A stretch of DNA of 64,000 bases from Podarcis pityusensis (lineage: Eukaryota): assembly GCA_964106645.2 (NCBI GenBank), contig OZ067052.1. The stretch is one strand, 5' to 3'. Within the stretch, counting starts at the first letter, position 1. Each line of letters begins with the position of its first letter. Of this stretch, positions 6,001-9,000 are shown in pieces. The position numbers are program-made.

Positions 6001-9000
6001 CTGGTTGCGTTGCTTAAGAGTAAAAAAATTTGGAGAAGTAAACGCACATGCTTCAAGCGAGGTCAGGAGTGTTTTATCTGCTAAATAATTCCACAACTGA
6101 GATGATGAAGATTGGACGGAAGGAACAGAGATAACACCAAAGAATCACAGACATATTGGTATGAGGAACGGAACGGAAAGGGGACTTTTCAGCCATTGTG
6201 AGAACAGGATGCTGGACTAGATTACGGTTACCAGACATCCCTGGTTCCCGGAGACAGTCCCCAGATTCACCAATCTGTCCTCGGAATGTCCCCGGATTTT
6301 AATTAATGTCCTCGGATTTATGCCTGGGGACTTCCGGTGAGGCAACATGGTGGGCGCCATGGCAGCGAGCAGCACCGGAGGTCCCGGCCATGTCAAAGTT
6401 CCAGCCAGCCAATTCACTGGCTGGGGGCGGGGCTGTTTAAACTTCCTCGATCAACGCCCTGCGCGCCCGAGTTGGGGGGGAGCGAGGTGCTGAGGCGGTG
6501 AAGAAGAGGAGGAGAAGCGTAGAAAAGAGCTGTGCTGCGTTGTGACAGAGAGCAAGAGATGGAGCGCAGCGATGCCTTCTCACGGGAACAAAGAGGTGCG
6601 ATAGCGAAGGCTGGGGGGGAACGGGGGGGGAGTCGGGCTGGCTCCTTTGCTTTCTCTCCTTCCTCTCCCTCCAACGGCCACTGCGGAGATGGTGAGTTTA
6701 ATGGGGGGCGAGGAAGGCGCTGAGGCGCCCCTTGTCCCCGGCGGTGCCACGCTGCCTTCCCGCAGGGGGTGGGGGTTGAAACATTCTCAGGAGATGGAGC
6801 CTCCTTCCCTCCGCGCCTCCTTCAACACCAGCAGCCTCTCTTGTGAGGAGGGCTGTGTGCGAGTTCACTGTTTCTCCACCTCTGGTAACGAGACACCGCC
6901 GCCGCCAGCTGAATCTCCATAGAGACTGCACTCGCCCTCCAGGGGTCTCCCGGTTATGGGAAGCCGGTGCCTTGTGTGTGTGTTTTTTAATGCGTGTTTT
7001 CCCAAGACCAGCGAGCGCCTTTGCTCGATCTCTCTCCCCTACCACCACCAACCTCTTTTTTTGGCATTTGTGTGTTTATAGATGGGCTTCTCCACCTGCC
7101 TTGTGTCATGGTGTGCGCCCGACAACTTTGGGGTCCCCCCCTAAAATAATGTCAAGAACTCCAGGCAACCCTTTCCTAAAATAATAAAGCTTGAATTTTT
7201 TATTTTTTTTTAAGTCCCCGGATTCCTTGAAAACAGTCTGGTAACCGTAGACTAGATGGGCCATTGGCCTGATCCAGCAGCTCTTCTTATATCCTTATGT
7301 ATTTTATTTCATAGAATCATAGAATCATAGAGTTGGAAGAGACCACAAGGGCCATCAAGTCCAACCCCCTGCCAAGCAGGAAACATCATCAGAGCACTCC
7401 TGACATATGGTTGTCAAGCCTCTGCTTAAAGACCTCCAAAGAAGGAGACTCCACCACACTCCTTGGCAGCAAATTCCACTGTCGAACAGCTCTTACTGTC
7501 AGGAAGTTCTTCCTAATGTTTAGGTGGAATCTTCTTTCTTGTAGTTTGGATCCATTGCTCCGTGTCCGCTTCTCTGGAGCAGCAGAAAACAACCTTTCTC
7601 CCTCCTCTATGTGACATCCTTTGATATATTTGAACATGGCTATCATATCACCCCTTAACCTCCTCTTCTCCAGGCTAAACATGCCCAGCTCCCTTAGCCG
7701 TTCCTCATAAGGCATCGTTTCCAGGCCTTTGACCATTTTGGTTGCCCTCCTCTGGACACGTTCCAGTTTGTCAGTGTCCTTCTTGAACTGTGGTGCCCAG
7801 AACTGGACACAGTACTCCAGGTGAGGTCTGATCAGAGCAGAATACAGTGGCACTATTACTTCCCTTGATCTAGATGCTATACTCCTATTGATGAGGCCCA
7901 GAATTGCATTGGCTTTTTTAGCTGCCGCGTCACACTGTTGGCTCATGTCAAGTTTGTGGTCAACCAAGACTCCTAGATCCTTTTCACATGTACTGCTCTC
8001 AAGCCAGGTGTCACCCATCTTGTATTTGTGCCTCTCATTTTTTTTGCCCAAGTGCAATACTTTACATTTCTCCCTGTTAAAATTCATCTTCTTTGTTTTG
8101 GCCCAGTTCTCTAATCTGTCAAGGTCGTTTTGTAGTGTGATCCTGTCCTCTGGGGTGTTAGCCACCCCTCCCAGTTTGGTGTCATCTGCAAATTTGATCA
8201 GGATGCCCTTGAGTCCATCATCCAAGTCGTTGATAAAGATGTTGAATAAGACCGGGCCCAAGACAGAACCCTGTGGCACCCCACTAGTCACTCTTCTCCA
8301 GGATGAAGAGGAACCATTGATGAGCACCCTTTGGGTTCGGTCAGTCTGCCAGTTACAAATCCACTGAGTGGTAGCATAGTCAAGACCGCATTTTACCAGC
8401 TTCTTTACAAGAATATCATGGGGCACCTTGTCAAATGCCTTGCTGAAATCAAGGTAGGCTACATCCACTGCGTTCCCTTCATCTACCAGGCTTGTAATTC
8501 TGTCAAAAAACGAGATCCGGTTAGTCTGACATGACTTATTTTTCAGAAATCCATGCTGACTATTGGTGATCACAGCATTCCTTTCTAGGTGCTCACAGAC
8601 TGTTTGCTTAATGATCTGCTCCAGAATCTTCCCTGGTATTGATGTCAGACTGACTGGGTGGTAATTATTTGGGTCCTCTCTTTTCCCCTTTTTGAAAATA
8701 GGGACAACATTTGCCCTCCTCCAGTCTGCCGGGACTTCGCCTGTTCTCCAGGAATTCTCAAAGATGACTGCCAGTGGTTCTGAGATCACATCTGCCAGTG
8801 CTTTTAATACTCTTGGGTGCAGTTCATGTGGCCCTGGAGACTTGAATACATCTAAACTAGCCAAGTATTCTTGTACTATCTCCTTAGTTATTCTGGGCTG
8901 TGTTTCCTCTGCTGAATCATTTGCTCCAAATTCTTCAGGTTGGGCATTGTTTTCTTTATCGGAGAAGACTGAGGCAAAGAAGGCATTGAGGAGTTCAGCC

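What the first reader, a model, noticed from the sequence alone, without database searches (positions are those of the whole stretch)
6223..7249. hAT transposon carrying a CpG-island-like cargo that resembles a captured gene 5' end (Pack-hAT)
Seen: between perfect TIRs and a perfect 8-bp TSD lies about 700 nt (about 6330-7030) of CpG-rich sequence with a GC box (GGGGCGGGG, about 6423-6432), a 5'UTR-like purine-rich stretch and a consensus donor ATG|GTGAGT at 6689-6697. No transposase is encoded. Known: gene-fragment capture is well described for plant Pack-MULEs and much less so for vertebrate DNA transposons. Inference: the element captured a promoter, first exon and intron start from another locus.
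Basis: partly seen in the sequence, partly recalled or inferred. Interest (0 to 1): 0.68.

Follow-up and report, generated by a model that had tools for sequence, protein, structure and literature searches.

The report
Young hAT-like transposon, CpG-rich core
This is a recently inserted, non-coding cut-and-paste transposon in a wall-lizard-like genome whose GC-rich middle looks like a gene promoter, but whether that middle was stolen from a host gene could not be tested here, and such captures are already known in vertebrates.

Summary
Window 6223-7249 is a 1,027-bp element with perfect 14-bp terminal inverted repeats (TACGGTTACCAGAC) and a perfect 8-bp target-site duplication (GACTAGAT). A paralogous uninterrupted copy of the host repeat near 42344-42351 carries a single GACTAGAT, so this is a true insertion. 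The core is CpG-island-like: GC 0.615 and CpG o/e 0.69, against 0.44 and 0.27 for the window. No transposase is encoded: 0 of 21 ORFs of 40 aa or more hit a relevant Pfam family.

The host is a lacertid lizard (CR1 reverse transcriptase 95-98% identical to Podarcis muralis proteins in 7 of 8 such rows).

The capture claim stays untested, because no eukaryotic genome was searchable. Internal clues lean towards a secondary acquisition: sharp compositional borders and a 13-nt direct repeat flanking the 748-bp core. The single promoter motifs are not above chance, and two upstream ATGs weaken the "first exon" reading.

Pack-hAT elements, including one carrying a gene's 5'UTR, are already described in vertebrates (PMC8277862). 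At best this is a new member of a known kind.

The parts
6215..6222 (.). Left copy of the 8-bp target-site duplication, GACTAGAT
   Evidence: Identical to 7250-7257. Present once in the paralogous uninterrupted repeat near 42344-42351.
6223..6236 (+). Left terminal inverted repeat, TACGGTTACCAGAC
   Evidence: 14 of 14 complementary to 7236-7249. Only these 2 matches in the window at up to 2 mismatches.
6257..6336 (.). Left subterminal repeats. GTCC[CT]C[GA]GA starts at 6257, 6277, 6288 and 6308, with an inverted copy CTGGGGACT at 6324-6332. Presumed transposase-binding sites (inference).
   Evidence: 5 of the 9 matches to this 9-mer pattern in the whole window (both strands) lie in the element's ends. 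Repeat families D2, D5, D10 and inverted pairs I17, I21.
6346..6358 (+). Left copy of a 13-nt direct repeat (CATGGTGGGCGCC) bracketing the core
   Evidence: 12 of 13 identical to 7107-7119. A left/right repeat of this quality arose in 6 of 400 shuffles.
6359..7106 (+). 748-bp non-coding core, mostly GC- and CpG-rich. Candidate acquired (filler or captured) DNA.
   Evidence: 6330-7030 has GC 0.615 and CpG o/e 0.69. No Pfam, PDB or protein-database relatives in any frame searched. No other copy in the 64 kb.
6409..6441 (+). Promoter-like motif cluster: CCAAT 6409-6413, GGGGCGGGG 6424-6432, TTTAAA 6436-6441
   Evidence: The combined pattern CCAAT..GGGCGG..T[AT]TAAA occurs once in the window on both strands. 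The single motifs are not above chance. This is a post hoc pattern.
6689..6697 (+). ATG followed by a consensus splice-donor-like GTGAGT
   Evidence: Only ATGGTGAGT in the window. P about 0.002 in shuffles of the core, post hoc. Upstream ATGs lie at 6559 and 6572.
7107..7119 (+). Right copy of the 13-nt direct repeat (CATGGTGTGCGCC)
7120..7235 (.). AT-richer right subterminal region. It holds CCTAAAATAAT twice (7140, 7175), AATAAA at 7183-7188 and the subterminal motif at 7214-7222.
   Evidence: 7031-7249 has GC 0.434 and CpG o/e 0.41. Repeat D15. Motif positions.
7236..7249 (-). Right terminal inverted repeat
7250..7257 (.). Right copy of the target-site duplication, GACTAGAT
42301..42366 (-). 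Paralogous uninterrupted copy of the host repeat tail. Serves as an empty-site reference.
   Evidence: Both flanks of the element align to it and overlap by the 8-bp TSD.

Best explanation
Window 6223-7249 is a young, non-autonomous cut-and-paste DNA transposon of hAT type in a lacertid lizard genome. It inserted into the tail of another interspersed repeat and duplicated GACTAGAT.

It encodes nothing itself. It would be moved in trans by a transposase made elsewhere, which recognises the 14-bp TIRs and the GTCCYCGGA subterminal repeats (inferred).

The element looks like a backbone of about 270 bp (6223-6358 plus 7107-7249). This backbone seems to have acquired a 748-bp stretch of foreign, CpG-island-like, non-coding DNA (6359-7106), bracketed by a 13-nt direct repeat. 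The most likely route is copying of ectopic DNA during repair of an excision gap or a template switch, which would make it a Pack-TIR-type element.

Shown: the insertion and its limits, the absence of coding capacity, and the composition.
Inferred: trans-mobilisation, and that the core was acquired secondarily.
Untested: that the donor was the promoter, first exon and intron start of a host gene. My odds are about 0.3 for that specific donor and about 0.5 for any secondary acquisition.
For: - Insertion and its limits: 14 of 14 TIR and 8 of 8 TSD; paralogous empty site; 0 of 20 shuffles give such a structure.
- Subterminal repeats are concentrated at the ends: 5 of 9 window matches.
- Non-coding: 0 of 21 ORFs with a credible Pfam hit; no hits for three long frames in the large protein sets; none in the PDB.
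- Composition steps at both borders of the core.
- The core keeps CpG o/e 0.69 with TpG and CpA near 1.1, in a window at 0.27 with TpG/CpA at 1.25. That fits DNA that was unmethylated until recently.
- A 13-nt direct repeat brackets the core (6 of 400 shuffles).
- Precedent: lizard hAT (hobo_AC) families incorporate genomic DNA, and 8 of 32 Anolis non-autonomous hAT families share only the TIRs with an autonomous element (PMC3014272, passages read). Tan et al. report 208 hAT-associated Pack-TIRs in animals and a frog hAT-N8_XT carrying 291 bp of the CAPSL 5'UTR (PMC8277862, passages read).
Against: - No donor locus, no second copy of the family and no autonomous partner could be examined. There is no other copy in the 64 kb.
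- The 13-nt repeat could be a family-specific subterminal motif rather than a junction.
- The terminal TACGG departs from the hAT YARNG motif at position 3.
- Pack-TIRs are rare, about 2 per 10,000 TIR elements (PMC8277862). Most Anolis non-autonomous hATs are plain deletion derivatives (PMC3014272).
- The single promoter motifs are at chance level.
Confidence: 0.45

Rival explanations
1. Internal-deletion derivative (Ds-like). The core is the family's own 5' region (promoter, 5'UTR, first exon with start codon, start of an intron) joined to the 3'UTR and poly(A) signal of the autonomous parent. Nothing was captured from the host.
For: - All gene-like signals point the same way on the + strand: the CCAAT/GC box/TTTAAA cluster at 6409-6441, ATG|GTGAGT at 6689, acceptor-like sites at 6765 and 7081, and AATAAA at 7183, 53 nt (7183 to 7236) before the right TIR.
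- Most Anolis non-autonomous hAT families are deleted versions of autonomous ones (PMC3014272).
Against: - No remnant of a hAT transposase (zf-BED, hAT dimerisation domain and others) in 0 of 21 ORFs of 40 aa or more.
- AATAAA also occurs on the - strand in the same AT-rich stretch (first base at 7204), and there are 103 AATAAA in the window, so it is weak evidence.
- The sharp GC steps and the flanking 13-nt repeat are not expected from a simple deletion.
Confidence: 0.25
2. Orphan non-autonomous family. The core is simply the family's long-standing consensus of unknown origin, and the promoter-like and exon-like features are coincidence in GC-rich DNA.
For: - GC box, CCAAT and GGTRAGT occur at chance frequency in sequence of this composition (P 0.72, 0.63, 0.10).
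- Two upstream ATGs, and no open frame after the donor.
- 8 of 32 Anolis non-autonomous hAT families are orphans of this kind (PMC3014272).
Against: - A CpG o/e of 0.69 over 700 bp, without selection, in a genome window at 0.27 argues for a recent origin from unmethylated DNA.
- ATGGTRAGT has P about 0.002, post hoc.
- The CCAAT/GC box/TWTAAA combination is unique in the 64 kb.
Confidence: 0.17
3. Nested insertion. Another mobile element, for example a LINE-dependent retroposon, inserted into a short MITE-like hAT, and the 13-nt repeat is its target-site duplication.
For: A 13-nt direct repeat (12 of 13) brackets the core exactly. That length is typical of target-primed insertions (recalled knowledge).
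Against: - No poly(A), microsatellite tail or terminal repeats at either end of 6359-7106.
- No Pfam hit in the core.
- No other fragment of the core in a repeat-rich 64 kb window, where the CR1 next to the element has several.
Confidence: 0.1
4. Chance arrangement that is not a transposon.
For: None beyond the shortness of the TIR.
Against: 0 of 20 shuffles give a TIR plus 8-bp TSD structure. The paralogous empty site matches both flanks with an overlap of exactly the TSD.
Confidence: 0.01

Closest known systems
Pack-TIR / Pack-hAT elements of animals (Tan et al. 2021, PMC8277862), especially frog hAT-N8_XT carrying 291 bp of the CAPSL 5'UTR
   Same: Non-autonomous TIR element with an 8-bp TSD, no transposase and an interior that looks like non-TE, gene-5'-end-like DNA. 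The TSD and the empty site show that it transposed after it reached its present form.
   Different: The defining parental locus has not been found here. The core is longer: 748 bp, against a median of 224 bp for Pack-TIRs. The family and its copy number are unknown.
Orphan non-autonomous hAT families and hobo_AC derivatives of Anolis carolinensis (Novick et al. 2011, PMC3014272)
   Same: Lizard host, 8-bp TSD with a CTAG-centred target (NTCTAGAN-type), size around 1 kb, and an interior unrelated to any transposase. Incorporation of genomic DNA into hAT elements is documented there.
   Different: None of the TIRs printed in that paper's Table 1 resembles TACGGTTACCAGAC. The nearest is hobo_AC, TAGGCTTGMTC. 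All of those families start with YARNG, and this one starts with TACGG.
Plant Pack-MULE / Pack-TYPE elements (PMC8903248, abstract seen in the listing)
   Same: The concept: a non-autonomous TIR element that shuttles host gene fragments.
   Different: Different superfamily and kingdom. Plant Pack elements are defined by captured exonic or coding DNA with an identifiable parent gene. No coding sequence is detectable here.
Maize Ds-type deletion derivatives of Ac (recalled knowledge)
   Same: A short non-autonomous hAT that keeps the termini and is mobilised in trans.
   Different: Ds interiors are collinear with Ac. No similarity to a transposase gene is detectable here.

Membership tests
hAT superfamily (non-autonomous member) | 8-bp target-site duplication | tested here: met
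   GACTAGAT on both sides. A single copy in the paralogous empty site.
hAT superfamily (non-autonomous member) | Short terminal inverted repeats (about 10-25 bp) | tested here: met
   14-bp perfect TIR.
hAT superfamily (non-autonomous member) | Terminal motif 5'-YARNG (as stated in PMC3014272) | tested here: not met
   The terminus is TACGG. Positions 1, 2, 4 and 5 fit; position 3 is C instead of a purine. I therefore call it hAT-like, and the superfamily assignment is provisional.
hAT superfamily (non-autonomous member) | Target preference nTnnnnAn, or NTCTAGAN for Charlie-like families (Table 1 of PMC3014272) | tested here: inconclusive
   GACTAGAT matches CTAGA at positions 3-7 but has A instead of T at position 2. 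A single insertion cannot define a preference.
hAT superfamily (non-autonomous member) | An autonomous partner with the same termini that encodes a hAT transposase | not testable with these tools
   No hAT transposase in the window. No lizard genome was searchable.
Pack-TIR / Pack-TYPE element | TIRs and TSD of a TIR transposon, and no transposase gene | tested here: met
Pack-TIR / Pack-TYPE element | Interior homologous to a non-TE parental locus elsewhere in the genome, with the parent not flanked by the TE (criteria in PMC8277862) | not testable with these tools
   No donor in the 64 kb. The only open DNA collection holds bacterial and archaeal genomes (0 hits).
CpG island | Sequence criteria (thresholds recalled: at least 200-500 bp, GC at least 0.50-0.55, CpG o/e at least 0.60-0.65) | tested here: met
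   6330-7030: 701 bp, GC 0.615, o/e 0.687.
CpG island | Unmethylated in the germ line | not testable with these tools
   Indirect only: TpG and CpA o/e are 1.11 and 1.06 in the core, against 1.26 and 1.25 in the window.
Pol II promoter plus first exon of a host gene | Core promoter motifs more frequent than composition predicts | tested here: inconclusive
   Single motifs are at chance (P 0.72, 0.63). The ordered CCAAT/GC box/TWTAAA cluster is unique in the window, but the pattern was chosen post hoc.
Pol II promoter plus first exon of a host gene | A start codon that is the first ATG and opens a frame continuing across a splice junction into recognisable protein | tested here: not met
   ATGs at 6559 and 6572 precede ATG 6689. 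The frames that follow the acceptor-like sites at 6765 and 7081 close within about 28 and 21 codons. Each piece was searched on its own without a hit.
Deletion derivative of an autonomous hAT | Remnants of transposase coding sequence, or collinearity with the parent | tested here: not met
   0 of 21 ORFs of 40 aa or more match zf-BED, the hAT dimerisation domain or any other family credibly. Collinearity with a parent could not be tested.

The most novel reading that the evidence does not exclude
An active lizard hAT-like family has picked up a complete CpG-island promoter with a start codon and a splice donor. It now spreads this as a portable cassette that can start transcripts and splice them into downstream host exons wherever it lands, acting as a natural promoter trap or exon trap. 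That would make it a multicopy, transposition-competent Pack-hAT in an amniote, and its effect on host genes could be read directly from RNA-seq.
Probability: 0.15. Interest if true: 0.55.

Novelty: new member of a known kind. Interest (0 to 1): 0.3.

Why it matters
If the core does come from a host CpG-island promoter, this copy would be a rare amniote example of a Pack-type DNA transposon that transposed after the capture. The perfect TSD and the empty-site paralog show that it moved in its present form. Tan et al. found only 4 multicopy, transposition-dependent cases among 370 animal Pack-TIRs. Such an element could seed new promoters and first exons across a genome in which DNA transposons are still active. 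If the core is only the family's own interior, this is an ordinary young non-autonomous hAT-like element, of which lizard genomes hold tens of thousands (about 24,000 in Anolis).

Tried and rejected
- Other copies in the window: blastn of the element against the window (word size 7) gave nothing above 30 bits apart from itself. The TIR with up to 2 mismatches occurs only at the two ends.
- Copies of the core as predicted proteins: the search for homologous proteins with 6780-7181(+) and with 6417-6821(-) gave no hit at E<=0.01.
- The search of protein representatives with 6701-7075(-) gave 1 hit at E 3e-4. It is a 22-residue motif in a 1,354-aa repeat protein and I rejected it as spurious.
They went to Pfam only; 6605-6919 and 6559-6690 also went to the PDB, with no hits.
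- Rfam: at E<=1 over 5500-8000 there were only 3 sub-threshold chance rows. A gathering-threshold scan of the whole window found nothing in the element. ARAGORN found nothing.
- Genome contigs (bacteria and archaea only), scanned with the left 33 nt: 0 matches. This says nothing about the lizard genome.
- The TIR string in the paper library gave 1 paper, an unrelated mouse primer.
- LTR plus primer-binding-site reading. I considered it because of ...TGTGTCA|TGGTGTGCGCCCGACAAC at 7100-7124. I rejected it from reading: there is no AATAAA or ATTAAA between the TATA-like box and that CA, and no matching second end.
- Processed retrocopy: rejected, since there is no poly(A) tail and promoter-like and intron-like parts are present.
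- Internal tandem duplication of the core: only a 26-nt local match (score 30, against 17.7 +/- 2.2 and a maximum of 26 in 200 shuffles). This does not explain the core.
- An internal 9-nt match to the TIR (TCTGGTAAC, 6881-6889): about 0.05 expected by my own estimate, so I did not pursue it.
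Full report
**What is there**

Window 6223-7249 is a 1,027-bp element. Its ends are TACGGTTACCAGAC at 6223-6236 and the exact reverse complement at 7236-7249, 14 of 14 bases. Complementarity ends there. GACTAGAT flanks it on both sides, at 6215-6222 and 7250-7257.

With up to two mismatches the TIR occurs only at these two places in the 64 kb. I scanned de novo for perfect inverted repeats of 11 bp or more, 60-6000 bp apart and flanked by identical 8-mers. The scan found two structures in the window and none in 20 of 20 shuffles. 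The second structure is the inner part of a Tc1/mariner-type TIR.

The strongest evidence for a true insertion is a paralogous "empty site". The last 23 nt of the left flank and the first 50 nt of the right flank both align to one uninterrupted repeat copy at 42301-42366 on the minus strand, at 95.7% and 92.3% identity. They overlap there by exactly the 8 bp that are duplicated at 6215/7250. So the element landed in the tail of another interspersed repeat and duplicated GACTAGAT.

**Host**

The CR1-type reverse transcriptase ORF next to the element (7392-9065, minus strand) is 95-98% identical to seven of the eight UniRef proteins labelled Podarcis muralis among the 120 rows listed. The eighth is 87% identical. 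Anolis carolinensis proteins are 74-80% identical, a Salvator merianae protein 70%, and turtle and bird proteins 48-68%. The window therefore comes from a lacertid lizard, Podarcis or a close relative.

The neighbourhood is rich in repeats: CR1 and other reverse-transcriptase fragments and a copia-type gag. Nothing in the window looked human.

**Anatomy of the element**

- Left end, first ~110 bp: four direct copies of GTCC[CT]C[GA]GA starting at 6257, 6277, 6288 and 6308, plus an inverted copy at 6324-6332.
- Right end: one more copy at 7214-7222.
- Five of the nine matches to this pattern in the whole window (both strands) lie in the element's ends. This is the layout of subterminal transposase-binding repeats in hAT-type elements (inference from general knowledge).
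- Right terminal ~220 bp: AT-richer, GC 0.434 and CpG o/e 0.41.
- Core, 6330-7030: GC 0.615 and CpG o/e 0.687, against 0.442 and 0.273 for the window. TpG and CpA o/e are only 1.11 and 1.06, against 1.26 and 1.25 for the window. It therefore meets the sequence criteria for a CpG island (thresholds recalled).

In addition there is CCAAT at 6409-6413, TTTAAA at 6436-6441 and AATAAA at 7183-7188.

**Coding capacity**

The longest stop-to-stop frame is 135 aa. None of the 21 frames of 40 aa or more that I scanned has a credible Pfam match at E<=1. In particular there is no zf-BED or hAT dimerisation domain.

Three long frames found no relatives in the large protein sets. The one hit at E 3e-4 is a short motif in a repeat protein and is spurious. 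Two further pieces found nothing in the PDB. Rfam and ARAGORN found nothing in the element.

**Is the promoter and first-exon picture more than chance?**

Only in part. In shuffles of the core, a GC box, a CCAAT and a GGTRAGT are each about as frequent as observed (P 0.72, 0.63 and 0.10). ATGGTRAGT is rare (P about 0.002). The ordered cluster CCAAT..GGGCGG..TWTAAA occurs once in the window. Both of the latter patterns were chosen after seeing the sequence.

Two points count against the "exon 1 ends with the start codon" reading:

- Two ATGs (6559, 6572) lie between the presumed start site and ATG 6689. The one at 6559 has the better context and opens a 44-codon frame up to the donor.
- After the acceptor-like sites at 6765 and 7081, the continuing frames close within about 28 and 21 codons.

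I searched the pieces one by one and made no joined exon model.

**Was the core acquired secondarily?**

Three internal clues say yes.

- Composition steps at both borders of the core.
- A 13-nt direct repeat, CATGGTGGGCGCC at 6346-6358 and CATGGTGTGCGCC at 7107-7119, brackets a 748-bp core (6359-7106). It leaves a backbone of about 270 bp. A 13-mer shared at one mismatch or fewer between the left and right 200 nt arose in only 6 of 400 compartment-preserving shuffles. The real element has three such pairs, and two of them are the subterminal motif.
- No transposase remnant is present.

The high CpG content, in a genome region that has otherwise lost its CpGs, also suggests DNA that was unmethylated until recently.

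None of this identifies the donor. The 13-mer could equally be a family-specific motif or the target duplication of a nested element.

**What could not be done**

The decisive test is to search the core and the termini against the lizard genome and its repeat library. No eukaryotic DNA collection was available. The 64 kb itself holds no second copy and no donor.

The capture hypothesis is therefore neither confirmed nor refuted. My estimates:

| Reading | Probability |
|---|---|
| Any secondary acquisition of the core | about 0.5 |
| A host gene 5' end as the donor | about 0.3 |
| Plain deletion derivative of an autonomous element | about 0.25 |
| Orphan family interior | about 0.17 |
| Nested repeat | about 0.1 |

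**Comparison with what is known**

The 8-bp TSD, the short TIRs, the subterminal repeats and the CTAG-centred target fit hAT elements. In Anolis the hAT families all have 8-bp TSDs, many have an NTCTAGAN target, and all have YARNG termini (PMC3014272; passages and Table 1 read).

This terminus, TACGG, breaks YARNG at position 3, and no TIR printed in that table resembles it. I therefore call the element hAT-like, and the superfamily assignment is provisional until a partner transposase is found. The TIR string does not occur in the searchable paper library apart from an unrelated primer.

Capture of host DNA by animal TIR transposons is established. Tan et al. (PMC8277862; passages read) report the following:

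- 370 Pack-TIRs in 100 animal genomes, 208 of them hAT-associated.
- Only four multicopy cases, among them frog hAT-N8_XT carrying 291 bp of the CAPSL 5'UTR on three chromosomes.

Novick et al. describe Anolis hobo_AC families that incorporate genomic DNA, and eight orphan non-autonomous families. The word "lizard" does not occur in the main text of Tan et al..

**Verdict**

The gene-capture part is plausible and has weak internal support, but it is untested, and its "first exon" detail is shaky. Even if true, this would be a new member of a known kind. Interest is modest, at 0.3. It would rise to about 0.55 if the element proves to be a multicopy, transposition-competent promoter/donor cassette.

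Noticed in passing
window 55009-55392 (TA at 55007-55008 and 55393-55394): A 384-bp Tc1/mariner-type MITE. Its TIRs are CTGTATATACTCGAGTATAAGCC and CCGTATATACTCGAGTATAAGCC, with TA duplications. The TIR matches the CYGTATATACTCGAGTATAA printed for Anolis TcMar-N4_AC and N6_AC (PMC3014272), which suggests a family shared between iguanian and lacertid lizards. Its interior is also GC-rich.
   Followed up: partly
window 7309-7800 and 17702-18193; ORFs 7389-9065(-) and 17782-18813(-): Two CR1-type LINE copies are 98.8% identical over 492 nt. The reverse transcriptase ORF is 95-98% identical to seven Podarcis muralis proteins. This is a very young, probably active CR1 family. The (CATAGAAT)n at 7303-7331 is its 3' tail on the minus strand.
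   Followed up: partly
window 278-940 (-): A 221-aa open frame with a copia-type gag domain (Retrotran_gag_2, E 2.7e-23) and a weak, sub-threshold match to a CCHC zinc knuckle (E 7e-4, 20.0 bits against a cut-off of 20.8). It lies in a CpG-rich stretch (o/e 0.73). This is a Ty1/copia-like LTR retrotransposon fragment.
   Followed up: no
window about 6150-6222 plus 7258-7300, and 42301-42366 (-): The repeat that received the insertion ends ...GAGAACAGGATGCTGGACTAGATGGGCCATTGGCCTGATCCAGC...CTTATG. A second copy of this tail lies at 42301-42366. The family was not identified. It is probably a SINE or LINE 3' end.
   Followed up: partly
window 34124-34180 (-): An Rfam tRNA match (47.3 bits, model positions 9-63) that ARAGORN does not call. 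It lies next to a fragment similar to the CR1 tail region (34041-34111). It is likely the tRNA-derived head of a SINE.
   Followed up: no
window 11290-12280: A GC-rich, low-complexity stretch that is open in several frames on both strands (up to 318 aa), with GA/GT-type microsatellites. No Pfam match for the one frame scanned, 11294-12247(-).
   Followed up: no
window about 50590-50720 (+), inside ORF 50491-50865: A possible host-gene exon. The frame reads ...AVKRREQTLQDYKRLQSKVEKYEEKEKTGPILTKLHQ... and resembles a coiled-coil or BAR-domain segment (recalled impression only). No Pfam hit at E<=0.001.
   Followed up: no
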